A stretch of 64,000 bases of DNA from an uncultured Candidatus Saccharibacteria bacterium (GTDB lineage Bacteria > Patescibacteriota > Minisyncoccia > Phycocordibacterales > CAIZLB01). A program made the position numbers and the translations under genes. Shown piece after piece: positions 3,889-42,494 of this stretch. The stretch lies in the NCBI GenBank assembly GCA_964467385.1, contig CAYXQC010000004.1, positions 9,429 through 73,428 of the forward strand, written 5' to 3'. Each line of letters starts with the position of its first letter. Positions within the stretch are counted from its first letter, which is position 1. The notes under the pieces were generated by a model, which saw nothing but the letters and a program-made list of their open reading frames with translations, ran no database searches and had not been told where the DNA came from.

Positions 3889-3894
3889 ACGATA

Positions 3895-11009: not shown

Positions 11010-12086
11010 ATGTGGCATAAGATTAAACACTATCTAGTTCAAACTGAGGAAAATAAACACAATCCGCACCTTCTACGATCGGAAATCTTGGCTGTGTTTT
11101 TGGTTCTAATTGTTGGACTGCAAGTTGTTTTTTTCTCTGGAATTTTGACACGAACTATTGCCTCATTTGCAAATATGATGGCAAGTGTTTTACCTGGGGT
11201 TCTCAGTCTTGAAACGAATGAATATCGTCACGGTCGAAGTATCTCTGAACTGCGCATGAGTCCTATTCTTGCCGAAGCTGCAAAATTGAAAGCAGAGGAT
11301 ATGGCACGCCGTGGATATTTCTCACATACTGGTCCAGATGGTGAAAAGCCTTGGGTCTGGCTACAAAAAGTTGGGTATGTGTATACATATGCGGGTGAAA
11401 ATCTAGCAGTAAACTTCGTCGATTCAAGCGATGTTACAAAGGCTTGGATAAATTCTCCAAAACATAAAGCTAATCTTGAGAATTCTAATTTTAAAGAAAT
11501 TGGTATCGGGACGGCTGAAGGGGAATATGAAGGAAAAATGACTACATATGTTGTGCAATTTTTTGCTACACCTGCAGAAGCTGAGAGCGTACCTGCTACG
11601 CCAGTTGCTACTACCATAACTGTAGCCGCGACTTCTACATCTATGGCCAATTCTGGCAAGCGAATCACAACTGCTTCATCGACAATTGCAACGTCAACAG
11701 TTTTGGCAACTACAGCGAGCACCTCAACAGGAAGCTCTACATCAGAAGTACTTGGTGTCTACACAACAGATACACCTATTGATACTTCCAGTGCTCGTAA
11801 TGGCGAAAATTCAGCAAATATGGCCTATGTAGAGGCTGTATCTCATCCGCGAGACTTTGCTCGAAATCTATTTATCGCAATAAGTACATTTCTTCTCCTG
11901 GTTCTTGGTTTTTCTATCATCCATCGAGCTATTTCACTAGGTGAAGCGCCATTTTTGCAGAGAATTACTGTGGGATTTAGGGCACATCGTAAGCATATTC
12001 TCGAAGTGATTTGTGTAATTCTTGCAATAGGCCTTATTTGGACTATTTTTGGCTATATTTCAGCGGGAATGGTTGCTGTTTCATAA
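11010..12086 (+). CDS. CAP/SCP/PR1-like (YkwD-family) domain protein with N- and C-terminal transmembrane segments and a Thr/Ser-rich linker
   Basis: CAP core: RMSPILAEAAKLKAEDMARRGYFSHTGPDG...AGENLAVNF...AWINSPKHKANLENSNFKEIGIG. Hydrophobic segments lie near residues 25-45 and 300-350. Confidence 0.7.
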   Translation: MWHKIKHYLVQTEENKHNPHLLRSEILAVFLVLIVGLQVVFFSGILTRTIASFANMMASVLPGVLSLETNEYRHGRSISELRMSPILAEAAKLKAEDMARRGYFSHTGPDGEKPWVWLQKVGYVYTYAGENLAVNFVDSSDVTKAWINSPKHKANLENSNFKEIGIGTAEGEYEGKMTTYVVQFFATPAEAESVPATPVATTITVAATSTSMANSGKRITTASSTIATSTVLATTASTSTGSSTSEVLGVYTTDTPIDTSSARNGENSANMAYVEAVSHPRDFARNLFIAISTFLLLVLGFSIIHRAISLGEAPFLQRITVGFRAHRKHILEVICVILAIGLIWTIFGYISAGMVAVS

Positions 12087-13819: not shown

Positions 13820-16552
13820 ATGAACATATCAGTTACAAAGCAAGACGGCACAAAAGTACCCTTCAATGCGGATTACATCAACAAGTCAATTGAACGAGCT
13901 TGCGCAGATTTACCAAACAGCGCTAGCTATGTTACACAGATTGCCAGTGAGACTCAGCTTACCTTGTTTGATGGTATAACGACGAATGAGCTTGATCAGG
14001 CGACTATTAGTGCTGCACTCCAGAACGTGCAGGATGATATTCGATATGACAAAGTTGCAACACGACTTCTCCTCAAGACAGTGTACCGACGAGTACTTGG
14101 TGAATATGATAAGGACAATGCGGCGGATCTTGAACGACGACATCGAGAGTATTTTCCCGAACATATGAAAAAGATGATCGCTGAAGGTCTTCTTGACCAG
14201 AAAATGGATGAAAAGCTCTTTGATCACAAGAAACTTGCAGACGCACTCAATATCTCACGAGATGAAATCTTTGCTTACGCAGGTCTCTCAACATTTCTCC
14301 ATCGATATTCTGTAAAAGATAAGAAATTAAATCCAATCGAAACTCCTCAGTATTTCTTCATGCGAGTAGCGATGGGTATGTCTTATTATGAAAAAGATCC
14401 TACGGCTACAGCTATCAGCTTCTACGAACAAATGTCACAGCACAAGTATGTGGCCGGAGGTTCTACAAACCTTACAGCGGGTACACCACGACCTGCGCTT
14501 TCAAATTGTTACCTCCTCGAAGTTCACGACGACATGGCACATATCGCTAAGTCAGTAGGAGATGTGATGCTTATTTCAAAAGGTACTGGAGGTCTTGGAG
14601 TTTCTCTTACAAAGCTTCGAGCGACAGGCTCTATTTTGAAGTCATCTAATACAACGTCATCTGGTCCAACTCCATTTGCAAAAATCATGGATACTGCGAT
14701 CCATGCGATTGTACGAGGTGGAAAGAAGAAAGGTGCACTCTGTTTCTACATGGAAACTTGGCACTATGATTTTCCTGAGTACATCCATTGGCGTCACAAT
14801 GCCGGAGATGACTATGTGCGAATGCGAACAGCTAACACAGCAGCTTATATCTCTGATGAATTTATGAAGCGTGTAACTCAGGGTGCTCAGTGGTACATGT
14901 TCGACCCTAAAGAAACAGCAGACCTGAACGAGCTTTATGGTGAAGCGTTTAGCAAGCGATATGCTGAGTACATTGAGATGGCAGAAGCTGGAAAAATGAC
15001 TATGTTCAAGAAGATGCCAGCTGAAGAACTCTATCGACAAATGCTTGTATCTCTTCAGACAACTTCACACCCATGGCTTACATGGAAAGATACTATCAAT
15101 ATGCGAGCGTTGAACAACAATACAGGTACTATTCACATGTCTAACCTCTGTACAGAGATTTGTCTTCCTCAGGATAAAGAAAACATCGCCGTATGTAACC
15201 TTGCCTCACTTAACATCGTGGCGCACCTCGTCGATAAGACGGTTACAGATCTTGGTGGGAAAGAAACTATTGTCAAAGAAATCGACTGGAAAGAACTTGA
15301 AAAATCTACTCGAATTGCAGTTCGACACCTCGATAATCTTATCGATATCAATCAGCCACCAGTTCCTGAAGCTGCAAAGTCTGACCGAGAAAACAGAGCT
15401 GTTGGTCTTGGTGTGATGGGGTTCTCAGATCTTATCGAAAAACTAGGGTTTGCGTACGACAGCGATGAGTCATTTACACTTGCTGACAAACTCTTCGAAT
15501 TCATCAGCTATATGGCAATCGATGAAAGTGCTGAACTTGCGAAAGTGCGAGGTTCATATACACACTTTGATGGTTCAATGTGGTCAAAAGGAATGGTACC
15601 ATTTGATACAATGTCTCTTTTGGAAAAATCTCGAGGTGAACAGCTTCTTGTAAATAAAGACATGCATGCAGGAGTTGATTGGGATGTACTTCGTGCAAAA
15701 GTAAAGAAGGGGATTCGAAATGCAACACTCATGGCTGTTGCACCAAATGCGAATATTGGACTTCTTGCTGGAACAGTTCCGGGTATCGATGTGCGATTTG
15801 CGCAGGCTTTCTCTCGAAATAAGTTCTCAGGAAAATATCTCGACATCAACCACAATCTTGTAGTCGACCTTGAAAAACTTGGCATCTGGGAAAAAGTTAA
15901 GTCAAAGATTATCGAAAACCGAGGTGATATTGAATTTATCGAAGAAATTCCTGAAAATATTAAGAAGATCTACAAGACTTCATTCTCAGTTTCTCCATAT
16001 GCAGTTATCGAAGTTGCTGCGCGAGCGCAGAAATGGGTAGATCAGGCACTTTCTCGAAATATGTACCTCGAGACTCGAGATATTAACCAGATTATTCACA
16101 TCTACAGTACAGCTTGGAAGAAGGGTCTCAAGTCTACATATTATCTCCACATGAAGCCTCAACACTCAGCAGAGCAAAGCACGATTGTGGTAAACAAAGC
16201 ACAGCAACTTGGTAAAAAAGGTTTCGCAGCTATGCGAATGTCGAGCCCACTTGCTGGCGCACCAGTTTCTGTAAGTATGCCAACTGAGATGGTCCAGCAA
16301 GTTTCTGCAAATGGAAACACCGCTACTATTCAGGCTTCAGCCCATGCTAATCCTAAAGAATCTACTATCACAGTAGATGTTGAAGCGACGATGCAGACTA
16401 ATGGTTCTACACCGAATACAATTGTCGCAGACATAGATGTTCAGGATACCACTGCAAAAAAAGCTGGCGGATATAAACCACTCAATTTAATCAGAGCTGA
16501 GGACTTTGGGGTAGATCCAAGTGAAGCGAATATTTGTGATGGTTGTCAGTAA
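13820..16552 (+). CDS. nrdA: ribonucleotide reductase class I alpha subunit with N-terminal ATP-cone and a ~150-aa low-complexity C-terminal tail ending in a Cys pair
   Basis: ATP-cone VTKQDGTKVPFNADYINKSIERA. Catalytic region NLCTEICLP. C-terminal CDGCQ. Confidence 0.9.
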   Translation: MNISVTKQDGTKVPFNADYINKSIERACADLPNSASYVTQIASETQLTLFDGITTNELDQATISAALQNVQDDIRYDKVATRLLLKTVYRRVLGEYDKDNAADLERRHREYFPEHMKKMIAEGLLDQKMDEKLFDHKKLADALNISRDEIFAYAGLSTFLHRYSVKDKKLNPIETPQYFFMRVAMGMSYYEKDPTATAISFYEQMSQHKYVAGGSTNLTAGTPRPALSNCYLLEVHDDMAHIAKSVGDVMLISKGTGGLGVSLTKLRATGSILKSSNTTSSGPTPFAKIMDTAIHAIVRGGKKKGALCFYMETWHYDFPEYIHWRHNAGDDYVRMRTANTAAYISDEFMKRVTQGAQWYMFDPKETADLNELYGEAFSKRYAEYIEMAEAGKMTMFKKMPAEELYRQMLVSLQTTSHPWLTWKDTINMRALNNNTGTIHMSNLCTEICLPQDKENIAVCNLASLNIVAHLVDKTVTDLGGKETIVKEIDWKELEKSTRIAVRHLDNLIDINQPPVPEAAKSDRENRAVGLGVMGFSDLIEKLGFAYDSDESFTLADKLFEFISYMAIDESAELAKVRGSYTHFDGSMWSKGMVPFDTMSLLEKSRGEQLLVNKDMHAGVDWDVLRAKVKKGIRNATLMAVAPNANIGLLAGTVPGIDVRFAQAFSRNKFSGKYLDINHNLVVDLEKLGIWEKVKSKIIENRGDIEFIEEIPENIKKIYKTSFSVSPYAVIEVAARAQKWVDQALSRNMYLETRDINQIIHIYSTAWKKGLKSTYYLHMKPQHSAEQSTIVVNKAQQLGKKGFAAMRMSSPLAGAPVSVSMPTEMVQQVSANGNTATIQASAHANPKESTITVDVEATMQTNGSTPNTIVADIDVQDTTAKKAGGYKPLNLIRAEDFGVDPSEANICDGCQ

Positions 16553-16587: not shown

Positions 16588-17616
16588 ATGGCAATTGTAG
16601 GAAGACCAGCACCAACAGACACAACACTGCATCCGATTAAGTATAAATGGGCGTATGAGCTCTATGGCCAAGCTGTTCGAAACACTTGGTTCCCACATGA
16701 AATCGCACTCAAGGAAGACCTCCAAGATTTTGCAAAAATGACGCAAGATGAACGACATGCGGTTGAATTTGTAATGTCATTCTTCAATCCAGCTGAGCTC
16801 ATCGTAAACCGATCGATTGCTCTTGGTGTATATCCATATCTCAAATCTCCAGAAGCGCACCTCTTTTTGGCTAAATGGATGTGGGAAGAGGCGAATCATT
16901 GTGTGTCATTTGAGTACGTGCTTGAAACTTTCCCATTTGATAAACAAAAGGTATATAACAATCACCTCCAAACACCTTCAATGATTGCTAAAGAAGCGTT
17001 CATTGAAAAATATCTCAAGCGAATGACCGAGGATCGACTCGATATCGAATCAGTGGACGGTAAAAAGGATTTCGTGCGAAATCTCGTGGCAACAAATATC
17101 GTAATGGAAGGAACATGGTTCTACTCTGGATTCATGGTAGTAATGTCATTTCGACAGCGAAACCAGCTTCGAAACTTTGCTTCGATGATCAACTGGGTAC
17201 TTCGAGATGAGTCACTTCACTTGAAGTTTGGTATCAACCTAATCCATACAATTCTTGAAGAAAATCAGGATCTCCTGACTCCCGAATTTGCGGACGAAAT
17301 CCGAAACATCATCATTGAAGGAGTAAATGTTGAACTCGAATACAACAAAGATCTGTTCCCGAATGGCATTCTCGGCTTGAATGCTGACTATGTAAACCAG
17401 TATGTAAAATACGTAGCTGATCGACGACTTGAAGAGCTTGGCCTTGAAAAGCACTATAATGTTCCAAACCCTGCAAAATGGATGGCTACAGCAACTGATG
17501 TGTATGAACTCGTAAACTTCTTTGAAGCTCAGAACACAAGCTATGAAGTGGATTCAAAGGCGCATGATGGTAAAAGTGATGAGGCGAAGGAGAAGGCTGA
17601 AAAGGTGGTGGAATAG
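16588..17616 (+). CDS. nrdB: ribonucleotide reductase class I beta subunit (ferritin-like), apparent class Ic signature
   Basis: Metal-site motifs WEEANH and DESLHLKF. The Tyr-radical position reads Phe (EEANHCVSF). The first carboxylate ligand appears to be Glu (AELIVNRS). Confidence 0.85.
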   Translation: MAIVGRPAPTDTTLHPIKYKWAYELYGQAVRNTWFPHEIALKEDLQDFAKMTQDERHAVEFVMSFFNPAELIVNRSIALGVYPYLKSPEAHLFLAKWMWEEANHCVSFEYVLETFPFDKQKVYNNHLQTPSMIAKEAFIEKYLKRMTEDRLDIESVDGKKDFVRNLVATNIVMEGTWFYSGFMVVMSFRQRNQLRNFASMINWVLRDESLHLKFGINLIHTILEENQDLLTPEFADEIRNIIIEGVNVELEYNKDLFPNGILGLNADYVNQYVKYVADRRLEELGLEKHYNVPNPAKWMATATDVYELVNFFEAQNTSYEVDSKAHDGKSDEAKEKAEKVVE

Positions 17617-17975: not shown

Positions 17976-18947
17976 TTATTTTTTACCCACAAGATACCTC
18001 TGAATATTATTCTTATGCGCCTGATATGTTTTTGCGCAATAAATATTTCTATTACTGTGAATATAAAATAGACACTCTGTTTTTTGTGGATTAAATGCTG
18101 CGTCAATTGCTGCAAGACTTGGATTTGCGATAGCTGTAGGTGGAAGCCCTTTGTTTTGATAAGTGTTGTAGTCAGATTCGATGTATTTATCTTTTGAAAG
18201 CACATCCGGCCACCAGTCTGTAGAGCTTGCTTTAGCGTATTGAAGCGTAGCGTCCATATCAAGAGTCATGCCACGAAAAAGTCGATTCCATATCACCCCA
18301 GAGATTATCTTCATGTCGCTCGGACCAGCTGCTTCGCGCTGAATAATAGAAGCGATTCGCACTGCGGTATCGAGGTTAATCTTTCCACCAGTGGTACCTG
18401 TCACACCAGTCGCTAAAGCACCTTGTGAATTTTTTGTGGCTGCATTACTTTTATTGCTTTTTCCACCAGCTTGTTTTGCTAATACTTTATTTGAAACTTC
18501 AGTGTTGAATTTTCGAAGCATTTGATTCGCCACATCTGCGCCAGTTGCATCGAGATCAAACCAGTACGAACCTGGCATATAATATCCGTCCAAAACACCT
18601 CGCTCATCTTGTGGAGCGGTGTTCAAAAAAGCTTCTGTATTGCTTGCATTCCACGACAAAACCTTGGTTAGTCTCTCGGCGATTTGTTCACGGCGTAGAC
18701 CTGGCTGAATGGTTACAAAACGTTTGGTTGGATTGGCTAGGTTTGAATAGAATTCGAGAGGATCAAGACCATTTTTGTAAAGAAATAGGCTGGTGCCCGT
18801 CATAGCTACTGACGCTAATAAAAACATTAAAACAAGGGATATTTTTAGTCGGAGCGAGGGCTTGCCGGAAGGTCGTCCAGACAGCCGTCCGTTCGAGTGA
18901 TGTGAAGATCCTTTATATACATGCGAATGTACCCGAGGGGCTCTCAT
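17976..18947 (-). CDS. mltG: MltG/YceG-like endolytic transglycosylase, paralog 1
   Basis: YNTYQNKGLPPTAIANPSLAAIDAAFNP...LFYIH family motifs, N-terminal membrane anchor. Confidence 0.7.
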   Translation of the reverse strand: MRAPRVHSHVYKGSSHHSNGRLSGRPSGKPSLRLKISLVLMFLLASVAMTGTSLFLYKNGLDPLEFYSNLANPTKRFVTIQPGLRREQIAERLTKVLSWNASNTEAFLNTAPQDERGVLDGYYMPGSYWFDLDATGADVANQMLRKFNTEVSNKVLAKQAGGKSNKSNAATKNSQGALATGVTGTTGGKINLDTAVRIASIIQREAAGPSDMKIISGVIWNRLFRGMTLDMDATLQYAKASSTDWWPDVLSKDKYIESDYNTYQNKGLPPTAIANPSLAAIDAAFNPQKTECLFYIHSNRNIYCAKTYQAHKNNIQRYLVGKK

Positions 18948-33363: not shown

Positions 33364-34638
33364 ATGGATTCTTTCTTTGAATCAGTAACCGTTAATGCCG
33401 TTCTTGTTTTTTTCTTTAAGATTGTCTATCTTGGTATTGCAATTGCAGTCCCTGTCTATCTTTCAAAAAAGTTTTGGAAAAAATGGAAAGCCTATGTCCG
33501 TGCACAGTTTTTTGCTAAGCAAAAGTACGTAGTACTTGAACTTAAAATTCCAAAGGGTTCAACAAAATCACCACTCGCCATGGAGGTATTCATGCATTGT
33601 TTGAATCAGACTGGCGGAGAGGGGACAAACTATGACAAGTTTTGGCTCGGTAAAAGTCGGACGATGTTTTCACTCGAAATTGTCTCAAACGGTGGTGACG
33701 TTAGTTTTTTGATCTGGACACGAGAGACATTTCAGGCAATTGTTGAGAATAACCTGTATTCGCAATTTCCAGATATTGAGATTCGAGTAGTTGATGATTA
33801 TGCATTTGATACACCATATGATGGCTCTGGTGATATTGAAATGTTTGCATGTGATTTTGTAAAAAATAAGGACTCTCATTATCCTATAAAAACGTATGTA
33901 CAGTACGGCTTAGATAAAGACCCTGACGAGGAGTTTAAGGTCGACCCAATCACACCCGTGATTGAAACACTTGGTTCACTTCAGAAAGGTGAGCAGATTT
34001 GGATTCAGATTGGTGTACGGGCGCACAAAAAAGAGATTCCAAAACCTGATACATGGTTTGAAAAAGTTGATTGGGAACATTTTGCTAAAGATGAAATCAA
34101 GAAGCTTATGAAGCGTGACGAGAAGCCAAAGGAGGGTCAACTTAAGATCGAAGAGCTTTCTATGACAAAGGGTGAGAAGGAAAAAGTGGAAGCTATTGAG
34201 AAAAATATTTCGAAAATAGCTTTTGATTGTGGTATTCGTGTGATTTATCTTGGTAAGAAAGATAAAGTGCGTGGAACTTTTGTGCCCGCAGTTACGGGTA
34301 TTTTTAAGCAATACAATACTACAAATCTCAATGGGTTTAAGCCTGCAAATGCGACATCTTTTGACTATCCATGGCAGGATCGAAGTGGTAAGAAACTTAT
34401 TCAGCACAAGAAAGCAATGTTGTATCTCTACAAGTATCGTTACTTCTTTTTCGATGAGTTTTTTCCGACTCAATACAAGACCATGTTCACTAAAAAAGAT
34501 TATGATTACCAACCATTTGTCCTCAGTGTTGAGGAATTAGCTAGTCTTTATCACTTCCCAGGTGATGTGTCACGAACCCCATCACTCTCACGTATTAATG
34601 CTAAGAAAGTTGAGCCGCCTGCGAATCTGCCAGTTTAG
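33364..34638 (+). CDS. hypothetical membrane-anchored protein (424 aa)
   Basis: N-terminal TM (VLVFFFKIVYLGIAIAVPVYL). Lys/Glu-rich middle region. Conserved-looking C-terminus LSVEELASLYHFPG. Promoter TTTGCA-N16-TAGAAT upstream. Confidence 0.5.
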   Translation: MDSFFESVTVNAVLVFFFKIVYLGIAIAVPVYLSKKFWKKWKAYVRAQFFAKQKYVVLELKIPKGSTKSPLAMEVFMHCLNQTGGEGTNYDKFWLGKSRTMFSLEIVSNGGDVSFLIWTRETFQAIVENNLYSQFPDIEIRVVDDYAFDTPYDGSGDIEMFACDFVKNKDSHYPIKTYVQYGLDKDPDEEFKVDPITPVIETLGSLQKGEQIWIQIGVRAHKKEIPKPDTWFEKVDWEHFAKDEIKKLMKRDEKPKEGQLKIEELSMTKGEKEKVEAIEKNISKIAFDCGIRVIYLGKKDKVRGTFVPAVTGIFKQYNTTNLNGFKPANATSFDYPWQDRSGKKLIQHKKAMLYLYKYRYFFFDEFFPTQYKTMFTKKDYDYQPFVLSVEELASLYHFPGDVSRTPSLSRINAKKVEPPANLPV

Positions 34639-34679: not shown

Positions 34680-35696
34680 ATGCCGCTAGAAAACAATACT
34701 GAGTCAGAAAATATAATTGAAAATTCAATTCTAAAACATGCATTAAGTATTGGTGTGACTTTGGTGCTATGTACACTCATTATACTTGGTGTATTTTATT
34801 TCAAACTTGTAAAAGCACCATCTGGCAGAACACAAGAGAGTTATCCAATCCGAGTAGTCATCGAACAAGGTCAAAATGCTGCATCTATAGCTGCTGAATT
34901 GAAAGAACAGCAAGTAATTTCGTCAGCAGGTTTCTTGCGACGACTCATATTGTTTCGAGGAAAGTCGGTACGCATATCTTCTGGAACATATATATTTGAA
35001 AATCCATCTACTGTTTTTACGGTTATGGACAGACTTATTAAAAGTGATTTTGGTTATACACCAGTAAAAGTCACAGTACCAGAAGGGATGAATGTGAAAT
35101 CTTTGACTCGACTTATAAGTGAAAAGTTTCCGCACCTTTCTGCGGATCAGTTTGCACTTGAATCTGCCAAATACGAAGGTTATTTATTCCCAGAAACATA
35201 TTTCTTCGAGCCAAGTGCAACATCTAGTGCCATTATTGCTCGCATGACTTCAATGTTTGACCAGATGATTACTAAACACCTCCCAGAATTTACAACTCTA
35301 AGTGAATCACAAAGACGTGACACTATCATTCTCGCATCAATCCTTGAAGAAGAGGTGCAAACGTATGAAGATAAGCAAATGGTCGCTGATTTACTCATGC
35401 ATCGCATGAAAATCGGCATGGCACTTCAGGTTGATGCTACGCTGGCATATCGTTTTGGGAAAACTTCAGCTGAGCTTCGTGCTGATGATTTGAAATCAGA
35501 GGATCCGTACAATACATATACGCATCGTGGTCTGCCACCAACTCCAATTTCTAACCCTGGCCTTGAGTCAATTCGAGCAGCTTTGAATCCGCTTCCAAAT
35601 CCATATCTCTTCTATCTTTCTGATAAAAATGGTATAACACATTTCTCAAAAACTCATGAAGAACACGTTAAACTCAAAGCTACATACCTCAGATAA
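34680..35696 (+). CDS. mltG: MltG/YceG-like endolytic transglycosylase, paralog 2
   Basis: YNTYTHRGLPPTPISNPGLESIRAALNP...LFYLS. N-terminal TM. Confidence 0.75.
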   Translation: MPLENNTESENIIENSILKHALSIGVTLVLCTLIILGVFYFKLVKAPSGRTQESYPIRVVIEQGQNAASIAAELKEQQVISSAGFLRRLILFRGKSVRISSGTYIFENPSTVFTVMDRLIKSDFGYTPVKVTVPEGMNVKSLTRLISEKFPHLSADQFALESAKYEGYLFPETYFFEPSATSSAIIARMTSMFDQMITKHLPEFTTLSESQRRDTIILASILEEEVQTYEDKQMVADLLMHRMKIGMALQVDATLAYRFGKTSAELRADDLKSEDPYNTYTHRGLPPTPISNPGLESIRAALNPLPNPYLFYLSDKNGITHFSKTHEEHVKLKATYLR

Positions 35697-36963
35697 GGGC
35701 GCACATGCTGTTTCAGATGTTCTGGCAGCAAATCAAACTCCGGGTCGGAAAGTCTTTGTGGGTATGTCTGGTGGTGTTGATTCTTCTGTATCAGCAGCAC
35801 TCCTCAAAGAAGCTGGATATGATGTCACTGGTGTGTTTATAAAAGTATGGCAACCAGATTCTACTGATTGTGGCTGGAAAGATGAGAGACGTGATGCTAT
35901 GCGAGTTGCTGCTGTACTTGATATCCCATTTTTGACTCTCGATTTTAGTGAAGTATATAAGCGTGAAGTGGTTGATTATATGATTAATGAATATGCTTCG
36001 GGTCGCACACCGAATCCTGACGTAATGTGTAATCGTCATGTAAAATTCGGTTCATTTTTAAAATATGCACGCGAACATGGTGCAGATTTCGTGGCTACGG
36101 GGCATTATGCGCAAAATGTAGAGATAGAAAATACTGATAGAGGCATTCGCGGTGGTAATATCGGTGGGACTGAAACAGTTGCTAAACCAAAAAAATACGT
36201 AGCTGAAAGTGTTGATAATCAAAAAGATCAAAGCTATTTTCTCTGGACTTTACATGAAAAGGATCTGGAGTACATATTGTTTCCAATTGGTCATCTAGAA
36301 AAAACAGAAGTGCGAAAACTTGCTGAAAAATTTGGATTACCTGTATTTGATAAAAAAGATAGTCAAGGTGTGTGCTTTATTGGTCACCTCGATATGAAAG
36401 AGTTCTTAAAAGAGCATATCCCAGGTGCTGCGAGGGTAGGTGAAGTTTTGGATACAACTGGAACAGTGATTGGTTCTCATGAAGGTGCGATACTGTATAC
36501 AATAGGTGAGCGACATGGGTTTAATCATATCGTGAAAAATACTGATCCTTTGCCACTTTTTGTAATTGCAAAAGATGTCAAAAAAAATACTATAACTGTT
36601 GCGCCGAAATCTGCACATGTAGCAATGGATAACGGCGGACAAAACGGTACAACCTTATCGACTCAAATAAGACTTCGAGATGTAAATCTACACAGTGATT
36701 TTGATGAACGACTTCGTATCGGAAAAGGTGCGAAGGTTGAACTCGAATGCAGGATTCGGTACCGACAAGAAAAACAAAAATGCACTTTGATGGTGCAAAC
36801 TGATAAAAATGGCGATCCAGAGTATATCGTTAAATTTGAAGAATTTCAGCACGGGCTGGCTGAGGGACAGTCTCTTGTTCTGTACTCTGATACTGTTAGC
36901 ACAAAAAATTCACAAAAAAACACTACACTTTGTATCGGTGGTGGTATAATCGAACTTATATGA
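35656..36963 (+). CDS. mnmA: tRNA-specific 2-thiouridylase MnmA (PP-loop ATPase) with insertion (start uncertain)
   Basis: KVFVGMSGGVDSSVSAALL PP-loop. Catalytic Cys region DVMCNRHVKF. Confidence 0.85.
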   Translation: MKNTLNSKLHTSDKGAHAVSDVLAANQTPGRKVFVGMSGGVDSSVSAALLKEAGYDVTGVFIKVWQPDSTDCGWKDERRDAMRVAAVLDIPFLTLDFSEVYKREVVDYMINEYASGRTPNPDVMCNRHVKFGSFLKYAREHGADFVATGHYAQNVEIENTDRGIRGGNIGGTETVAKPKKYVAESVDNQKDQSYFLWTLHEKDLEYILFPIGHLEKTEVRKLAEKFGLPVFDKKDSQGVCFIGHLDMKEFLKEHIPGAARVGEVLDTTGTVIGSHEGAILYTIGERHGFNHIVKNTDPLPLFVIAKDVKKNTITVAPKSAHVAMDNGGQNGTTLSTQIRLRDVNLHSDFDERLRIGKGAKVELECRIRYRQEKQKCTLMVQTDKNGDPEYIVKFEEFQHGLAEGQSLVLYSDTVSTKNSQKNTTLCIGGGIIELI

Positions 36964-37844
36964 GTCCAGTATATATAACCAAAGAAGACGGTCAGGTAGA
37001 AGAGTTTGATCCTATTAAGCTGCAAGAATCCTTGATACGAGCAGGAGCTCAGCAAAACCTAGCAGAAAAAATCGCCAGAGAAATGGTTGATGATATTAAA
37101 GCCGGTGTTTGTGATCCTGAATCGGCAAATGGTGGCACTTGTACAGTTCATCAGATTTTCTCAAAAGCTTTTGAGATGTTGAAACAGGCTTCAATTGCCG
37201 CAGCTGCACGGTATTCGCTTCGACGGTCTATTATGGAATTCGGTCCAAGTGGCTTTCCATTTGAAAAATATGTAGCCCAAATTTTCAATGCCAAAGGCTA
37301 CACAACCCTCACAGACCAGCTTGTATATGGCGGTTGTGTACCACACGAGGTAGATGTAGTGGCTTGGAACGAGGAAAAACTCATCATGGCTGAGGTTAAA
37401 TACCACAATGAGCAGGGTGGGAAGTCTGATCTAAAAACTGCACTCTATGTGAAAGCGCGATACGATGATTTGAAAGATAATTCATTTACATACGGAGATT
37501 TTCCTCCACGTAAAATTGATCAATGGCTGTTGATTACAAATACGAAATTTACTGAAACTGCTATTACCTATGCAAAATGCAAAGGTCTTGAACTTATCAG
37601 TTGGATGTATCCTGAAAAAGGCAATCTGCTCGACATGATTGAAGAAACCAAACTTCATCCGATCACATGTCTTACTACTTTATCGGCAAATGACAAAAAG
37701 GATTTGTTGGCACATGATATTGTGCTTTGCAAAACTATTTATGAAAAGCGACAACTCCTAAAAGAAATCGGTTTGACAGACGCTAAGATTTTTAAAGTTA
37801 TGGAAGAAATTGGGCAAATCATCAATTTGGCGCCGAGGGATTAG
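36960..37844 (+). CDS. ATP-cone domain fused to Mrr-like restriction-endonuclease (PD-(D/E)XK) domain protein
   Basis: ATP-cone VYITKEDGQVEEFDPIKLQESLIRAG...AEKIAREMV. Mrr_cat-like FEKYVAQIFNAKGYTTL...HEVDVVAWNEEKLIMAEVKYH. Start chosen at the ATGA overlap with mnmA (track: 36930). Confidence 0.65.
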   Translation: MSPVYITKEDGQVEEFDPIKLQESLIRAGAQQNLAEKIAREMVDDIKAGVCDPESANGGTCTVHQIFSKAFEMLKQASIAAAARYSLRRSIMEFGPSGFPFEKYVAQIFNAKGYTTLTDQLVYGGCVPHEVDVVAWNEEKLIMAEVKYHNEQGGKSDLKTALYVKARYDDLKDNSFTYGDFPPRKIDQWLLITNTKFTETAITYAKCKGLELISWMYPEKGNLLDMIEETKLHPITCLTTLSANDKKDLLAHDIVLCKTIYEKRQLLKEIGLTDAKIFKVMEEIGQIINLAPRD

Positions 37845-37893
37845 TGCCGAGGTGGTTTTTTATTTTGTGCTCTTTATGTGCTAACATAAAAAC

Positions 37894-38721
37894 ATGGCCT
37901 GGACATCAACCTGGAAGAAGAAATTTTATATCCCCGGACAGACTGAACCGTTTAAGTTGAGCCGCTCTAAAATTGACCTTTTTGTTGATTGTCCTCGATG
38001 TTTCTATCTTGATCGACGACTCGAGGTTGGACGGCCGAGCATGCCTCCATTTACCCTAAACAGCGCTGTAGATCATCTTTTGAAAAAAGAATTTGATATG
38101 CACCGTAAAGCTGGCACACCGCATCCTTTGATGACCGAGAACGGTCTTGATTTTGTGCCATTTGATCATGACAAGATAAACGAGTGGCGTGAGAACTTCG
38201 TTGGTGTGCAATACTTGCATAAAGAAAGTAATTTCCTTGTTTTTGGAGCGGTTGATGATTTGTGGGTTGATGCAAAAGGTAAAGTTCATGTGGTTGATTA
38301 CAAAGCTACTAGCAAAGATGAGGCTGTGACAAAGCTCGAGGATACAAAATGGCATGACCAGTATCGACGACAGATGGAAATTTACCAATGGCTTTTGAAG
38401 CATAATGATCTTAATGTTTCTGATACTGGGTATTTTGTATACGTAACGGGCCGAAAAGATCTTGATAGTTTCGATGGCAAACTCGAATTTTACACAAATT
38501 TGATTTCATATAAAGGAAAAAGTGATTGGGTTGATGAAACTTTAATGCAGGCCAAGGCGTGTCTTGATGGAGATTCAATTCCAGAAGCTGGTCATGATTG
38601 CGAGTATTGTAACTATCGCGAAAATGCCGGTAATGCATTCAAAAAGCATGTTGCAAAGTTTGGTGCGAAGGCAATGGGGAAGAAAGGTAGTGCGACAAGT
38701 TCAAATAAAGTGAAGAAATAG
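37894..38721 (+). CDS. Cas4-like PD-(D/E)XK nuclease with Fe-S cysteine pattern (DUF83-type)
   Basis: N-terminal CPRC. C-terminal C-X10-C-X2-C (KACLDGD...HDCEYCNY). D..K core (VVDYKAT). No CRISPR array nearby. Confidence 0.65.
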   Translation: MAWTSTWKKKFYIPGQTEPFKLSRSKIDLFVDCPRCFYLDRRLEVGRPSMPPFTLNSAVDHLLKKEFDMHRKAGTPHPLMTENGLDFVPFDHDKINEWRENFVGVQYLHKESNFLVFGAVDDLWVDAKGKVHVVDYKATSKDEAVTKLEDTKWHDQYRRQMEIYQWLLKHNDLNVSDTGYFVYVTGRKDLDSFDGKLEFYTNLISYKGKSDWVDETLMQAKACLDGDSIPEAGHDCEYCNYRENAGNAFKKHVAKFGAKAMGKKGSATSSNKVKK

Positions 38722-38765: not shown

Positions 38766-40571
38766 ATGAAAAAAGTAAAAACAGAAAAAAATATCAATAC
38801 AGAACACCAGTGGGATTTCACTGACTTATATAAAGATCTGAATGACCCGAAACTTGAGCAAGATATTGCTGAAGTTGAAACACTTTGCGCCGATTTTGAA
38901 AAAAAGTACAAAAATGATCAGGAATACCTTAAGGATGAATCAAACGACACGCTCGTAGTAGCGATGAATGACTGGGAAAAACTTCATGATACCATCGGTA
39001 TGATTAAGCCTCTTTGGTATCTTTTCAATATGCAATCAATTATGAGCGGCAATGCAAAACTCGATCAAAAAATTGGCCAGCTCGAACCGAGAGCGACAAA
39101 TGCCGTAAATAGAATCGTCTTCTTTCCACTTGAGCTTGGTAAATTACCAGAAAAACGCCAGGCTAAAATTCTTAAAGATCCTCGGTTCGCATTTTTTGTA
39201 TACTACTTAAAGCGAACTTTTGAAGTTGCAAAATACAATCTTACCGAAGAAGCTGAAAAAGTGAATAATCTTTTAACCCGACCAGCTCGAACGCTTTGGA
39301 TTGATGGTTTTGAAAAGCTTACAAACAAAGAAACTGTTAAATTTAAGGGTAAAAATATTCCGTTATCGCAGGCACAGACTATGATTCATCAGCTACCACT
39401 TGCTGATCGTAGAAAACTCCACGATCTTTGCATGGAAAAGCTAAAATCGATTAGCTATTTTGCAGAGCAAGAAATAAATGCAGTGTACACTACAAAGAAA
39501 ATAAATGATGAGCTTCGTGGATATGAAAAGCCATATTCTGAAACTATTATTGGATATGAAAATTCTATCGAAACAATCGAGAATCTGGTTAAAACTGTTT
39601 CTGATAATTTCGCAATTTCAAATCGTTTCTATACTTTGAAGAAAAAACTTCTTAAACTGCCATACCTTGAATATGCTGATCGAGCAGTTGGTATTGCTAA
39701 AAAGCAGGTACAGATCCCTTTTGAAAAATCCGTAGAAATTCTTCGATCTGCGTTCGGAAAAGCGGGTGAACGGTACCTGCACATTCTTGATAAAATGCTC
39801 AAGGATAAGCGAATAGACGTGTACTCACGAATAGGTAAGCGAGGCGGTGCGTATTGTTGGGGTGGCCAAACTGTACCAACAGTTGTACTCCTTAACTATG
39901 TGCCAAGTGTCGATGCGGTTATGACATTTGCTCATGAAATGGGTCATGCAATTCACACTGAACTTTCCAAAAAGCAAAGAAAGTTTTATCAAAGTTACAC
40001 TATTTCTGTTGCTGAAATTGCCAGTACATTTTTTGAGAATCTAGCATTCCAGGAATTATTCGAAAAAATGTCGGACACAGAAAAGATTTACGCACTGTAC
40101 GATCGATTGGCTGATAGTATGCAAACTATTTTCAGACAAATTGCATGTTTTAACTTCGAATTGAAATTGCATGAAGATCTGCGAAAAAATGGTGCGCTAA
40201 CTGCTGCGGAAATATGCAAAGCACATAATACTGAAATGAGCAGATATCTCGGCAAAGCAGTCAAAATGCATGAACTAGACGGTTATCTCTTTTGTTCATG
40301 GAGTCATATTCGAAACTTTTTCTATGTGTATTCATATGCATACGGCGAACTTATCAGCCGCGCATTGTACAAGAAGTGTAAAGAAGATGACAGCTTTTTT
40401 GCCAAGGTTGATATGTTTTTGGAAGCCGGAAACAGTATGTCGCCTGATAATATATTCAAATCAATCGGCTTCGATGTAAGTAAGTCAAGCTTTTTCGAAA
40501 AAGGTTTGCAGTCTATTGAGGAAGATTTGACTACACTTGAGAAATTGATGAAGAAAAATAAGATGATTTAA
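38766..40571 (+). CDS. pepF: oligoendopeptidase F (M3 family zinc metallopeptidase)
   Basis: HExxH zinc motif TFAHEMGHAIH. Length and layout typical of M3B. Confidence 0.85.
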   Translation: MKKVKTEKNINTEHQWDFTDLYKDLNDPKLEQDIAEVETLCADFEKKYKNDQEYLKDESNDTLVVAMNDWEKLHDTIGMIKPLWYLFNMQSIMSGNAKLDQKIGQLEPRATNAVNRIVFFPLELGKLPEKRQAKILKDPRFAFFVYYLKRTFEVAKYNLTEEAEKVNNLLTRPARTLWIDGFEKLTNKETVKFKGKNIPLSQAQTMIHQLPLADRRKLHDLCMEKLKSISYFAEQEINAVYTTKKINDELRGYEKPYSETIIGYENSIETIENLVKTVSDNFAISNRFYTLKKKLLKLPYLEYADRAVGIAKKQVQIPFEKSVEILRSAFGKAGERYLHILDKMLKDKRIDVYSRIGKRGGAYCWGGQTVPTVVLLNYVPSVDAVMTFAHEMGHAIHTELSKKQRKFYQSYTISVAEIASTFFENLAFQELFEKMSDTEKIYALYDRLADSMQTIFRQIACFNFELKLHEDLRKNGALTAAEICKAHNTEMSRYLGKAVKMHELDGYLFCSWSHIRNFFYVYSYAYGELISRALYKKCKEDDSFFAKVDMFLEAGNSMSPDNIFKSIGFDVSKSSFFEKGLQSIEEDLTTLEKLMKKNKMI

Positions 40572-40625: not shown

Positions 40626-42494
40626 ATGCAGCCGGCACAGCCTACTATGAATTCTTCAGAAATCCGAAAGCGTTTCTTGGCTTTCTTCGAAAAGCGAGGT
40701 CACGCTATTCTCCCGAGCGCTCCACTTGTACCTGAGAACGATCCGTCAGTGCTTTTTAACACTGCTGGCATGCAACCTTTGGTGCCGTATCTTCTTGGCG
40801 AAAAACACCCACTCGGCACTCGTCTAGCTAACTTTCAGAAATGCGTACGAACAGTAGACTTTGATGAGATTGGTGATAATACACATTTTACTTTTTTTGA
40901 AATGATGGGTAACTGGTCACTTGGTGACTATTTTAAAAAAGAAGCGATTGAATGGAGCTATGAACTTCTCACAAACAAGGAAGAGGGTTTTGGTCTCGAT
41001 CCGCAGCGACTCTATGTAACTTGTTTTGAAGGAAATGAAAATGCACCGCGAGACGATGAGTCTGCTGGTATTTGGCGTGAGATTTTCGAGCGAAATGGTG
41101 TGACTGGCGAGCGGATTTACTTTATGCCAGCTAAAAATAACTGGTGGAGTCCTGGTGACAATGGTCCATGTGGCCCTGATACTGAGATGTTTTACGACGT
41201 AACAGGAAATCATGCTGACGCTAAAGGAATGACGAAAGAAGAATACTTGGCAGCTGATAATAAACAGGAAGTTGTGGAGATTTGGAACGATGTGTTTATG
41301 GAATACCGAGCAGAAAACGGTAAAGTAGTTGGTAAGCTTGCTACAAAAAACGTAGACACTGGTTCTGGCTATGAACGAGTGACTATGGTGCTTCAAGGTA
41401 AGACAAATGCATATGATACTGACATTTTTGCTTCAACATTTGCCAAAATAAGCGAACTTAAAACCTTATCTGACACAAAAAAAGAGCGAATAATCGTTGA
41501 TCATACTCGAACATCGGTGATGCTCATTTCAGACTGCGTCACCCCATCAAACACCGATCAAGGGTACATTTTACGACGACTAATTCGACGAGCTGTGCGT
41601 GTAGCTGATGAAATCGGTATGAAACCCGGATCACTCTTCTGGATCGCTGATACACTTATCGAGCAGTATAAAGATATCTATGAAAACGTTGGGCGACTTC
41701 GGGAGACTATCAAGGTTACTATTGATACTGAAGAGAAAAAATTCAGAAATACTTTAAAAGATGGTCTTAAAGAATTTAATAAAAGTTTGGAGAAAATTCA
41801 GGCTGAAAGTGGTAGCAATTCTGGTGCGAAAAATTTAATTTCAGGTGAAATTGCATTCAAACTCGTTACAACATACGGCTTCCCATTTGAAATGGTCAAA
41901 GAAATGGCTAAGGATAAAGGTTTTGAGGTAGATATTGCAAATTTTGAGGAAAAATTTGAAGCTCACAAGTCACTTTCACGGGCCGGCGCTGAACAGAAGT
42001 TCAAAGGTGGTCTTGGTGACACAAGTGAAATGTCAGTAAAGTATCACACAGCCACGCATCTCTTGCATCAAGCGCTTCGAGAAGTTCTTGGTGAGCATGT
42101 ACAGCAAAAGGGAAGTAATATCACTCCAGAACGGCTTCGGTTTGACTTTGCTCATCCTGCCAAAATGACTGATGAAGAAAAAAATCGAGTTGAAGGAATT
42201 GTAAATGAAAAAATCAAAGCGGCACTTCCTGTTGCTGTTGTAAGTCTACCCTTTGCAGAAGCTGAAAAGACCGGTGCATTGCATTTCTTTGGTGAGAAGT
42301 ATGGCGACACAGTTACGGTTTACTACATCGGCGATCAAGCAGATGAAAAAGGTACAAACATTGAACACGCATTTTCTAAAGAATTCTGTGGTGGTCCTCA
42401 TGTAAAAAACACAAGCGAACTTGGAACATTTAAGATTCAAAAAGAAGAGGCTGTTTCTCAGGGAGTAAGACGAATTAAAGCGGTTTTGAATTAA
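40626..42494 (+). CDS. alaS: alanyl-tRNA synthetase, short form (catalytic + editing domains, no C-Ala domain)
   Basis: N-terminus SEIRKRFLAFFEKRGHAILPSAPLVP. Editing-site HTATHLLHQALREVLGEHVQQKGS and CGGPH. Only 622 aa. The likely true start is the ATG at 40647. Confidence 0.85.
   Translation: MQPAQPTMNSSEIRKRFLAFFEKRGHAILPSAPLVPENDPSVLFNTAGMQPLVPYLLGEKHPLGTRLANFQKCVRTVDFDEIGDNTHFTFFEMMGNWSLGDYFKKEAIEWSYELLTNKEEGFGLDPQRLYVTCFEGNENAPRDDESAGIWREIFERNGVTGERIYFMPAKNNWWSPGDNGPCGPDTEMFYDVTGNHADAKGMTKEEYLAADNKQEVVEIWNDVFMEYRAENGKVVGKLATKNVDTGSGYERVTMVLQGKTNAYDTDIFASTFAKISELKTLSDTKKERIIVDHTRTSVMLISDCVTPSNTDQGYILRRLIRRAVRVADEIGMKPGSLFWIADTLIEQYKDIYENVGRLRETIKVTIDTEEKKFRNTLKDGLKEFNKSLEKIQAESGSNSGAKNLISGEIAFKLVTTYGFPFEMVKEMAKDKGFEVDIANFEEKFEAHKSLSRAGAEQKFKGGLGDTSEMSVKYHTATHLLHQALREVLGEHVQQKGSNITPERLRFDFAHPAKMTDEEKNRVEGIVNEKIKAALPVAVVSLPFAEAEKTGALHFFGEKYGDTVTVYYIGDQADEKGTNIEHAFSKEFCGGPHVKNTSELGTFKIQKEEAVSQGVRRIKAVLN

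What the first reader, a model, noticed from the sequence alone, without database searches (positions are those of the whole stretch)
36960..38721. Adjacent ATP-cone/Mrr-like nuclease and Cas4-like Fe-S PD-(D/E)XK nuclease: candidate two-gene defence or DNA-processing module
Gene 1 fuses an ATP-cone, an allosteric nucleotide sensor typical of RNR and NrdR, to an Mrr-type restriction-endonuclease catalytic domain. That predicts a nuclease gated by (d)NTP levels. Gene 2 is a Cas4/DUF83-like nuclease with an N-terminal CPRC and a C-terminal C-X10-C-X2-C Fe-S pattern, but no CRISPR-Cas context. The pair sits between housekeeping genes (mnmA, pepF) with an ATGA overlap into mnmA.
Basis: partly seen in the sequence, partly recalled or inferred. 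Interest (0 to 1): 0.55.

Follow-up and report, generated by a model that had tools for sequence, protein, structure and literature searches.

The report
Two conserved housekeeping nucleases, not defence
Two neighbouring nuclease genes in an ultra-small (Patescibacteria) bacterium are real and intact, but they are slowly evolving core genes in a housekeeping gene row and not a paired anti-phage system; the first belongs to a widespread, untested family that probably cuts nucleic acid under control of cellular ATP or dATP.

Summary
Gene 1 (36960-37844) has an ATP-cone, an Mrr_cat/AF1548-type PD-(D/E)XK nuclease domain and an AF1548-like C-terminal domain. Its catalytic residues E130, D132, E145 and K147 are invariant. 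Gene 2 (37894-38721) is a Cas4-like, RecB-family nuclease, with invariant D..DYK and Q..Y motifs and four invariant cysteines (C33, C36, C236, C239). The C-terminal spacing is C-X12-C-X2-C, not X10.

Both genes sit in a gene order conserved across Paceibacteria: DUF8128, YceG, MnmA, gene 1, [MgtC], [gene 2 or HD], [UDG], PepF, AlaS. They diverge no faster than MnmA and AlaRS.
- Gene 2 follows gene 1 in 29 of 63 informative gene-1 loci, often with MgtC between them.
- Only 8 of 38 informative gene-2 loci have gene 1 upstream.
- No known defence system matched, and the window has no CRISPR array or cas gene.

Outside Patescibacteria, gene 1's family pairs with a beta-CASP nuclease in 8 of 11 contexts. 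Four of these continue with a nucleoside phosphorylase and a PRPP-synthetase-like gene.

Best reading: gene 1 is an adenine-nucleotide-gated nuclease for nucleic-acid turnover or salvage, and gene 2 is a separate DNA-end-processing exonuclease.

The parts
35656..36963 (+). mnmA (tRNA 2-thiouridylase). It is the upstream neighbour, and its stop codon overlaps the gene 1 start (ATGA).
   Evidence: Pfam tRNA_Me_trans, 245.8 bits. Sequence. Upstream of gene 1 in 71/80 related loci.
36960..37844 (+). Gene 1: 294-aa ATP-cone / AF1548-type PD-(D/E)XK nuclease / C-terminal helical domain protein.
36972..37229 (+). ATP-cone domain (residues 5-90). It carries a lineage-specific Cys-containing insert at about residues 48-63.
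   Evidence: Pfam PF03477, 29.5 bits against a 25.8 cutoff. hhalign to RNR cones. K8 invariant and K20 at least 90% conserved family-wide. Foldseek gives weak NrdR and RNR cone hits.
37251..37601 (+). Mrr_cat / AF1548-type nuclease core (residues 98-214). Catalytic D132 (37353-37355), E145 (37392-37394) and K147 (37398-37400).
   Evidence: Pfam PF04471, 28.5 bits against a 21 cutoff. Alignment to 1Y88. AF1548 D38/E51/K53 are predicted catalytic in PMC1821046. Invariant.
37659..37823 (+). AF1548-like C-terminal helical domain (residues 234-288).
   Evidence: Pfam PF22357, 22.0 bits (cutoff 23.9). Aligned to the 1Y88 C-terminus. Foldseek target-normalised TM-score (TMt) 0.76 to 1Y88.
37845..37893 (.). 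49-nt spacer between gene 1 and gene 2. No promoter-like or terminator-like site was reported here.
37894..38721 (+). Gene 2: 275-aa Cas4-like / RecB-family PD-(D/E)XK nuclease. Cys C33 (37990-37992), C36 (37999-38001), C223 (38560-38562), C236 (38599-38601), C239 (38608-38610). Motif residues D122 (38257-38259), D135 to K137 (38296-38304), and Q160 to Y164 (38371-38385).
38766..40571 (+). pepF (M3 oligoendopeptidase), the downstream neighbour. AlaRS follows at 40626-42494.
   Evidence: Pfam Peptidase_M3, 128.9 bits. alaS lies downstream in 49/80 related loci.

Best explanation
These are two separately conserved, vertically inherited nuclease genes of a Paceibacteria (Patescibacteria/CPR) chromosome. 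They lie in a long co-directional housekeeping row. They are not a dedicated two-gene system.

Gene 1 belongs to a compact family of about 280 residues, widespread in several phyla and not experimentally characterised. An N-terminal ATP-cone is fused to a catalytically intact AF1548/Mrr-type PD-(D/E)XK nuclease and a small helical C-terminal domain.

Inferred mechanism for gene 1: the ATP-cone binds ATP or dATP (or a related adenine nucleotide) and, as in RNR and NrdR, changes the oligomeric state or domain packing. This switches the nuclease on or off according to the energy or dNTP state. The cuts start nucleic-acid breakdown for turnover and nucleotide or pentose salvage.

Inferred mechanism for gene 2: it is a metal-cluster-stapled RecB/Cas4-like exonuclease that trims DNA ends in repair, recombination or degradation. 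In this lineage it may act after gene 1, in the position the beta-CASP nuclease holds in other phyla. It also works in other contexts without gene 1.

Shown here: domain make-up, intact catalytic residues, synteny statistics and gene neighbourhoods. Inferred: nucleotide gating, substrate, and any cooperation between the two proteins.
For: Domains and residues:
- Gene 1's E130, D132, E145 and K147, and the ATP-cone K8, are invariant across CPR, Bacteroidota and Chlamydiia members. K20 is at least 90% conserved.

Family size and architecture: 521 clusters at 50% identity reach E<=1e-30, and nearly all of the best 150 are full-length three-domain proteins.

Core-gene behaviour:
- At least 598 species genomes carry gene 1.
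- The same gene order recurs, with mnmA in 71/80 loci, yceG in 65/80 and DUF8128 in 59/80.
- Divergence equals that of MnmA and AlaRS.
- Gene 1 has no hit in viral contigs or phage records.

Neighbours in Paceibacteria: a DNA or nucleotide gene (gene 2, UDG, a YfbR-like HD 5'-deoxynucleotidase, or ExoX) lies within 2.6 kb downstream in 52 of 63 loci. An MGMT-like gene appears in L100.

Neighbours in other phyla:
- 8 of 11 contexts have a beta-CASP MBL nuclease directly downstream, in several cases overlapping gene 1.
- 4 of the 11 continue with a thymidine/AMP-phosphorylase-family gene and a PRPP-synthetase-like gene.
- Usp, PFK, DeoC, a GAPDH-like gene, phosphoketolase, acetate kinase, PPK2 and MgtC lie nearby.
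- The MBL, Prs and TP trio is induced by microoxia in Bradyrhizobium (PMC6515984).

Gene 2: AdnA, RecE, Cas4 and Exo5 are its nearest solved folds.
Against: - No biochemistry exists for either protein.
- The ATP-cone is divergent. The residue equivalent to NrdA R10 is Glu or variable. A profile search found no RNR or NrdR cone in the PDB by sequence.
- The Paceibacteria neighbourhoods are not phylogenetically independent, so they may reflect frozen synteny and not function.
- No beta-CASP, TP or Prs homologue lies near gene 1 in the window or in the related Paceibacteria loci.
- Gene 2 homologues also sit directly downstream of Type IIG or Type III restriction genes and a Ppl-like gene, and in a phage-like contig. 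A defence-related role for gene 2 is therefore not excluded.
Confidence: 0.5

Rival explanations
1. DNA-repair reading. Gene 1 is a damage-specific or structure-specific repair endonuclease. It works with the repair genes that share its slot (the Cas4-like exonuclease, UDG, an MGMT-like protein, ExoX). The ATP-cone only couples incision to dNTP availability for repair synthesis.
For: 52 of 63 Paceibacteria loci have gene 2, UDG, HD or ExoX within 2.6 kb downstream of gene 1. L100 and L102 show gene 1, gene 2, an MGMT-like gene or UDG. Some sources annotate homologues as 'Holliday junction resolvase-like'.
Against: In other phyla the partners are a beta-CASP nuclease, a nucleoside phosphorylase, Prs and stress or glycolytic genes, not repair genes. 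The repair neighbours come from a single class with conserved synteny.
Confidence: 0.22
2. This is a two-gene anti-phage module. The ATP-cone senses a phage-induced shift in the dNTP or ATP pool and unleashes the Mrr-type nuclease. The Cas4-like nuclease finishes the degradation.
For: The sensor-plus-PD-(D/E)XK layout resembles Can2 and Cdn1, and Foldseek matches the nuclease core to Can2, MspJI and AspBHI. Gene 2 homologues lie next to Type IIG and Type III restriction genes, a Ppl-like gene and integrases in some genomes.
Against: PADLOC gives no system-level hit. Gene 1 holds a fixed position between housekeeping genes in 71/80 loci. Divergence matches aminoacyl-tRNA synthetase genes. Gene 1 is absent from viral contigs and phage records. 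Adjacency is only 29/63 and 8/38, with MgtC often between the genes. The composition profile shows GC of about 0.36-0.43 across 30-46 kb, with no break at the pair.
Confidence: 0.1
3. Gene 1 is a nucleotide-sensing DNA-binding regulator similar to NrdR. Its nuclease fold serves only for DNA binding.
For: Some sources call homologues 'NrdR family'. An ATP-cone-bearing class I RNR is encoded 20 kb upstream.
Against: The nuclease motif residues E130, D132, E145 and K147 are invariant across phyla. There is no Zn ribbon. TIGR00244 scores 14.4 bits against a 124.65 cutoff.
Confidence: 0.05

Closest known systems
AF1548 of Archaeoglobus fulgidus (PDB 1Y88; Pfam Mrr_cat plus AF1548-like_C)
   Same: It shares the nuclease core and C-terminal helical domain: E=1.2e-24 over residues 104-288, and Foldseek E=1e-15 with target-normalised TM-score 0.76 and 34% identity. 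The predicted catalytic D38, E51 and K53 align with D132, E145 and K147.
   Different: AF1548 has no ATP-cone. It is a structural-genomics protein of unknown function.
Mrr-type (Type IV) restriction endonucleases
   Same: The Mrr_cat catalytic core matches above the Pfam cutoff.
   Different: Gene 1 has no N-terminal winged-helix reader of modified DNA. It lies in a housekeeping context and has no defence-system match.
ATP-cones of RNR and NrdR
   Same: The N-terminal domain matches PF03477. K8, E14 and K20 align with NrdA K9, E15 and K21. By analogy, nucleotide-dependent switching of oligomeric state is the likely working principle (inference).
   Different: The output domain is a nuclease, not a reductase or a Zn-ribbon repressor. 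The residue equivalent to R10 is not basic. The cone is too divergent to hit PDB cones by sequence.
Can2 / Card1 / Cdn1 (nucleotide-sensor domain fused to a PD-(D/E)XK nuclease)
   Same: They follow the same logic: a small-molecule nucleotide sensor fused to a PD-(D/E)XK effector. Foldseek matches the nuclease core to Can2 and Cdn1.
   Different: Their sensor is a CARF/SAVED-type domain that binds cyclic oligoadenylates, and they belong to CRISPR or CBASS defence. Here the sensor is an ATP-cone in a housekeeping context.
Cas4, the AddB and AdnA nuclease domains, and Exo5 (Fe-S RecB-family exonucleases), compared with gene 2
   Same: Gene 2 shares the RecB-type D..D/ExK and QxxxY motifs, and cysteines near the N- and C-termini. 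Foldseek hits are AdnA 9e-7, RecE, type I-C Cas4, SSO0001 and Exo5.
   Different: There is no cas or CRISPR context. The Cas4 models score below their cutoffs. The cysteines form a 2+2 pattern (CxxC ... CxxC) and not the canonical C...CxxCx5C. No helicase is fused.
The cluster of ATP-cone nuclease, beta-CASP MBL nuclease, thymidine/AMP-phosphorylase-family gene and PRPP-synthetase-like gene in Bacteroidota and Chlamydiae
   Same: The first gene of that cluster is a full-length homologue of gene 1, at about 40% identity.
   Different: The window and the related Paceibacteria loci lack the beta-CASP, phosphorylase and Prs partners. Cas4-like, HD, UDG or ExoX genes occupy the downstream slot instead.

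Membership tests
ATP-cone (PF03477) | Profile score above the Pfam gathering cutoff | tested here: met
   29.5 bits against 25.8, residues 5-90.
ATP-cone (PF03477) | Binds ATP or dATP and transmits an allosteric signal | not testable with these tools
   Only conservation of K8, K20 and Y85 and alignment to NrdA K9, E15 and K21. The R10 equivalent is not basic.
Mrr_cat / AF1548-like PD-(D/E)XK nuclease | Profile and structure match, with the D...ExK catalytic motif present | tested here: met
   PF04471 scores 28.5 bits against 21. 1Y88 matches at E=1.2e-24 and target-normalised TM-score 0.76. D132, E145 and K147 are invariant.
Mrr proper (Type IV restriction enzyme) | N-terminal winged-helix domain that reads modified DNA | tested here: not met
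   The N-terminus is an ATP-cone, and no Mrr_N hit was found.
NrdR | Zn ribbon plus ATP-cone, and TIGR00244 above its cutoff | tested here: not met
   14.4 bits against 124.65. There is no Zn-ribbon segment.
PDDEXK_1 (PF12705), gene 2 | Full-length profile match above the cutoff, with RecB motifs | tested here: met
   52.1 bits against 22, covering model positions 2-244 of 247. D122, D135-Y-K137, Q160 and Y164 are invariant.
Cas4 (PF01930 / TIGR00372), gene 2 | Score above the family cutoffs | tested here: not met
   PF01930 scores 17.8 against 22.7. TIGR00372 scores 22.3 against 65. PADLOC Cas4 models give only about 30 bits.
Cas4 (PF01930 / TIGR00372), gene 2 | Canonical four-Cys Fe-S pattern C...CxxCx5C (the pattern is taken from established knowledge) | tested here: not met
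   The invariant cysteines are C33, C36, C236 and C239, a 2+2 pattern. C223 is only about 90% conserved. No Cys lies 5 residues after C239. Whether the metal is Fe-S or Zn cannot be tested here.
Cas4 (PF01930 / TIGR00372), gene 2 | Genomic association with cas1, cas2 or a CRISPR array | tested here: not met
   The 64-kb window has no CRISPR-like repeat array. The annotated ORFs carry no cas domain.
Known anti-phage defence systems (PADLOC-DB 2.0) | System-specific protein models matched by both genes | tested here: not met
   Gene 1 matches only the nuclease end of ZorD, at 16 bits. Gene 2 matches only generic Cas4 models.
Dedicated two-gene module or operon | Adjacency conserved across lineages, in both directions | tested here: not met
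   Gene 2 lies within 2.6 kb downstream of gene 1 in 29 of 63 loci, often with MgtC between them. Gene 1 lies upstream in 8 of 38 gene-2 loci. Non-CPR gene 1 homologues pair with a beta-CASP gene instead.
Defence-island or mobile gene behaviour | Variable context, presence on phages or plasmids, patchy distribution | tested here: inconclusive
   Gene 1 has a fixed housekeeping context in CPR and no viral hits. It is, however, plasmid-borne in Criblamydia and Pontibacter. Gene 2 has variable contexts that include restriction, Ppl-like, integrase and phage-like loci.

The most novel reading that the evidence does not exclude
The ATP-cone/AF1548-type nuclease family would be a so-far undescribed class of allosterically controlled nucleases. 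They would read the adenylate or dATP state and open a route from nucleic acid to nucleotides and pentose. In Bacteroidota and Chlamydiae the route would run through a beta-CASP nuclease, an AMP/thymidine-phosphorylase-family enzyme and a Prs-like enzyme within hypoxia or starvation gene islands. In Paceibacteria, which depend on scavenged nucleotides, it would be a core gene working with Cas4-like, ExoX or HD nucleotidase partners.
Probability: 0.3. Interest if true: 0.7.

Novelty: new member of a known kind. Interest (0 to 1): 0.4.

Why it matters
As flagged, the pair is ordinary: two database-annotated nuclease families in a conserved housekeeping row.

The useful by-product concerns gene 1's family. 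It has hundreds of clusters at 50% identity and an invariant catalytic motif and cone lysine. It is a core gene in a large part of Patescibacteria. Searches of the held literature found no functional study of it. If its nuclease is gated by ATP or dATP, it would extend ATP-cone allostery beyond ribonucleotide reduction. It would also give a testable handle on how nucleotide-auxotrophic ultra-small bacteria, and hypoxia- or starvation-stressed Bacteroidota and Chlamydiae, control nucleic-acid turnover.

Tried and rejected
- Sequence search of gene 2 against the PDB gave only chance hits to glycerol kinase.
- A profile of gene 1 against the PDB recovered 1Y88 but no RNR or NrdR cone.
- The promoter and terminator scan of 33-43 kb found no more sites than shuffled sequence and none in the gene 1 to gene 2 spacer.
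- The tandem-repeat scan found no CRISPR array.
- Phage GenBank records have no match for either protein. Viral contigs have none for gene 1.
- tblastn with beta-CASP, TP-family, Prs and AAA_28 queries found nothing in the window or in the gene-1 loci. The only hit was a beta-CASP match in one gene-2 locus, L158.
- Literature searches for ATP-cone with (restriction) endonuclease or with CPR terms, and for 'ATP cone domain-containing protein', returned no study of this family. AF1548 appears only as a predicted restriction endonuclease in the Global Ocean Sampling (GOS) metagenome paper.
- A specific functional link between mnmA and gene 1 was considered and set aside. The adjacency is confined to Paceibacteria and is absent in all 11 contexts from other phyla.
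- The NrdR-like regulator reading was rejected because the catalytic residues are invariant.
Full report
OBSERVATION

Both ORFs exist as described. Gene 1 runs 36960-37844 (+), 294 aa. Its ATG overlaps the mnmA stop codon as ATGA at 36960-36963. Gene 2 runs 37894-38721 (+), 275 aa, after a 49-nt spacer.

Pfam places three domains in gene 1:
- an ATP-cone at residues 5-90 (29.5 bits, cutoff 25.8);
- Mrr_cat at 98-214 (28.5 bits, cutoff 21);
- AF1548-like_C at 234-288 (22.0 bits, cutoff 23.9).

Residues 104-288 match the structural-genomics protein AF1548 (PDB 1Y88) at E=1.2e-24. An AlphaFold model (mean pLDDT 86) superposes on 1Y88 with Foldseek E=1e-15 and a target-normalised TM-score of 0.76.

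Gene 2 matches PDDEXK_1 over almost the whole model (52 bits). It stays below the Cas4 cutoffs: PF01930 17.8 against 22.7, and TIGR00372 22.3 against 65. Its model (pLDDT 88) is closest to the AdnA nuclease domain, RecE, type I-C Cas4, SSO0001 and Exo5.

One correction to the finding: the C-terminal cysteine spacing is C223-X12-C236-X2-C239, not X10.

CATALYTIC AND SENSOR RESIDUES

Among 32 close homologues of gene 1, H129, E130, D132, E145, K147 and H149 are invariant. In a wider set of 30 sequences from CPR, Bacteroidota, Chlamydiia and unnamed representative clusters, E130, D132, E145 and K147 stay invariant. So does the ATP-cone lysine K8, and K20 is at least 90% conserved.

D132, E145 and K147 align with AF1548 D38, E51 and K53. 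Those were predicted to be catalytic in PMC1821046.

This puts K8, E14 and K20 on NrdA K9, E15 and K21. The R10 equivalent is Glu or variable. A profile search did not reach RNR or NrdR cones in the PDB by sequence. The cone is therefore real but divergent, and nucleotide binding remains an inference.

In gene 2, D121, D122, D135-Y-K137, Q160, Y164 and four cysteines (C33, C36, C236, C239) are invariant. C223 is not. This 2+2 pattern differs from the canonical Cas4/AddB C...CxxCx5C pattern. Whether the site holds Fe-S or Zn cannot be decided here.

GENOMIC SETTING

The window is a Patescibacteria chromosome segment made of housekeeping genes:
- Ddl, a class I RNR with its own ATP-cone, G6PD, YchF and LeuRS;
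- a sigma-like HARE-HTH protein, a DUF8128-like protein, YceG, MnmA, gene 1, gene 2, PepF and AlaRS;
- further downstream, S4, RpoA, GrpE, DnaK, DnaJ and a class II aminoacyl-tRNA synthetase.

The window has no CRISPR array and no cas domain in the annotated ORFs. Composition is even across the region. Promoter-like and terminator-like sites are no more frequent than in shuffled sequence.

SYNTENY, FORWARD DIRECTION

The best 80 loci are all Patescibacteria, mostly Paceibacteria. Counts in these 80 loci, and confirmed by HMM:
- mnmA upstream in 71;
- yceG in 65;
- the 424-aa DUF8128-like gene in 59;
- alaS downstream in 49;
- gene 2 downstream in 36.

Among the 63 loci with at least 2.5 kb of downstream sequence, the genes within 2.6 kb are:
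- gene 2 in 29;
- a UDG-family glycosylase in 31;
- a YfbR-like HD 5'-deoxynucleotidase in 11;
- an ExoX-like exonuclease in 2;
- MgtC in 19, usually between gene 1 and gene 2.

Gene 2 and the HD gene mostly alternate in the slot after gene 1. In 52 of the 63 loci, at least one DNA or nucleotide-metabolism gene follows gene 1.

Median identity to the window proteins across these loci is 47% for gene 1 and 55% for gene 2. The comparison values are 46% for MnmA, 54% for AlaRS and 37% for YceG. That is housekeeping-grade conservation.

SYNTENY, REVERSE DIRECTION

A metagenome scan with the gene 2 profile returned 80 loci at 52-70% identity. Of the 38 with at least 2.5 kb upstream, only 8 have gene 1 within 2.6 kb.

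The other gene 2 contexts vary. Several place gene 2 directly downstream of a Type IIG restriction-methylase or a Type III restriction enzyme, plus a Ppl-like PHP-ATPase (L084, L085, L145, L082). Others place it beside integrases.

One IMG/VR contig (L081) carries a 62%-identical copy. It lies between a methylase with a ResIII/TnsA-like protein and a PIF1/RecD-type helicase, next to a terminase large subunit. A 46%-identical copy lies on a phage-like Flagellatimonas plasmid.

Gene 1 has no relative in IMG/VR or in GenBank phage records.

GENE 1'S FAMILY OUTSIDE PATESCIBACTERIA

tblastn against plasmids found full-length homologues, about 40% identical, in Criblamydia sequanensis and Pontibacter actiniarum. 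In both, the homologue is the first gene of the same cluster:
- ATP-cone protein;
- MBL-fold hydrolase;
- thymidine-phosphorylase-family protein;
- ribose-phosphate pyrophosphokinase.

A homologue search seeded with the Criblamydia protein returned at least 6551 proteins, including Chlamydiia, Chitinophaga, Psychroserpens and Saprospiraceae.

Eleven contexts outside CPR were inspected. In eight, a beta-CASP/RMMBL metallo-beta-lactamase nuclease lies immediately downstream, in several cases overlapping gene 1. Four of these eight continue with the phosphorylase and Prs-like genes. Two of the eleven have an AAA_28 gene instead, and one has neither.

Recurrent neighbours are Usp, 2-hydroxyacid dehydrogenase, a GAPDH-like gene, PFK, DeoC, P-II, PPK2, P-type ATPases and MgtC. 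In Criblamydia they also include phosphoketolase, glycogen phosphorylase and acetate kinase.

In Bradyrhizobium diazoefficiens the MBL, Prs and TP trio (bll3115-3117) is induced under microoxia (PMC6515984). Whether that locus also holds a gene 1 homologue was not shown.

None of these partners occurs in the window or near gene 1 in the Paceibacteria loci.

An exhaustive profile search gives 521 clusters at 50% identity with E<=1e-30 and 972 with E<=1e-10. Almost all of the top 150 are 270-295-aa proteins covering all three domains. A few, like AF1548, lack the cone.

INTERPRETATION

The two genes are real, intact nucleases. The evidence does not support a dedicated pair, and supports a defence system even less. 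Adjacency is partial in both directions, and an unrelated gene often separates the two. The surrounding order is a frozen housekeeping array. PADLOC recognises no system.

The most economical reading has two parts.

Gene 1 is a core, adenine-nucleotide-gated nuclease. Its ATP-cone would switch oligomeric state or domain packing, as in RNR and NrdR, so that nucleic-acid cleavage follows the ATP or dATP state. Its partners in two settings support a turnover or salvage role: an exonuclease, a nucleoside phosphorylase and a Prs-like gene with stress genes in other phyla, and Cas4-like, ExoX, HD nucleotidase or UDG genes in Paceibacteria.

Gene 2 is a generalist RecB/Cas4-like end-processing exonuclease. 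It occurs in housekeeping, restriction-linked and phage contexts. In this lineage it may take the exonuclease place that beta-CASP holds elsewhere, but that cooperation is inference only.

A pure DNA-repair role for gene 1 is the main rival. The defence reading remains possible but unlikely for gene 1. It is somewhat more open for gene 2 taken alone.

COMPARISON, NOVELTY AND SCORES

Both proteins are ordinary members of families already present in databases, as 'ATP cone domain-containing protein' or 'restriction endonuclease', and as 'PD-(D/E)XK nuclease family protein'. A solved structure exists for the nuclease half of gene 1's family.

Gene 2 fails three Cas4 membership tests: score cutoffs, cysteine pattern and cas context. 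It should be called Cas4-like, not Cas4. Gene 1 is neither Mrr proper (no modified-DNA reader) nor NrdR (no Zn ribbon).

No study of the ATP-cone nuclease family was found in the held literature.

Verdict: new member of a known kind, interest 0.4. The most novel reading still open is an ATP/dATP-gated nuclease that starts a nucleic-acid salvage route. I give it about 0.3 probability, and an interest of about 0.7 if true.

Noticed in passing
window 33364-34638 (+): A 424-aa protein with an N-terminal membrane segment had no hit in my Pfam scan. Homologues in the same position (upstream of yceG) carry a precomputed PF26449 DUF8128 hit. It is conserved in 59/80 related loci. It looks like a core gene of unknown function, seen so far only in Patescibacteria loci.
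   Followed up: partly
window 13820-16552 and 16588-17616 (+): [quoted passage not shown] The genome therefore encodes a second ATP-cone protein, and its cone also lacks the Arg of the usual KR pair.
   Followed up: partly
window 37101-37148 (gene 1 residues ~48-63): The ATP-cone carries a lineage-specific insert, 'GVCDPESANGGTC', with two cysteines. It is present only in the ~10 closest relatives and is modelled with low confidence (pLDDT about 61). It could be a disulfide or a metal site.
   Followed up: no
L033, L035, L048, L054, L059, L061, L063, L065, L067, L070, L102 and others: An MgtC-family membrane protein gene sits directly after gene 1, often between gene 1 and gene 2, in 19/63 Paceibacteria loci. 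An MgtC-domain gene also lies near the gene 1 homologue of Psychroserpens. The recurrence across phyla is unexplained.
   Followed up: partly
L084, L085, L145, L082 (about 3100-6700 in each locus): Gene 2 homologues (about 55% identical) lie directly downstream of a Type IIG restriction-methylase or a Type III restriction enzyme plus a ~940-aa Ppl-like PHP-ATPase. In L084 a protein follows that matches RT-protease and LmuA models. This may be an uncharacterised defence operon that uses this nuclease.
   Followed up: partly
L081 (IMG/VR contig, 751-11646): A 62%-identical gene 2 homologue lies in a phage-like stretch: N6_N4 methylase, ResIII/TnsA-like protein, gene 2 homologue, PIF1/RecD-type helicase, terminase large subunit and a ParB-methylase. 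This suggests exchange of the nuclease between Paceibacteria and their phages.
   Followed up: partly
L090, L091, L096, L183/L184: A conserved cluster in Chlamydiae and Bacteroidota: ATP-cone nuclease, beta-CASP MBL nuclease, thymidine/AMP-phosphorylase-family gene and PRPP-synthetase-like gene. It is embedded among Usp, PFK, 2-hydroxyacid dehydrogenase, P-II, PPK2, phosphoketolase and acetate kinase genes. The MBL, Prs and TP trio is microoxia-induced in Bradyrhizobium (PMC6515984).
   Followed up: partly
window 17976-18947 (-): A second YceG/MltG-family paralogue lies on the minus strand, one of the few minus-strand genes in the window.
   Followed up: no
window 2994-3887 (+) and 7008-10847 (+): An HTH plus rve_3 integrase (IS-type transposase), and a 1279-aa surface protein with nine Bact_surface_Ig-like repeats, a HYR domain and a C-terminal peptidoglycan-binding domain.
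   Followed up: no
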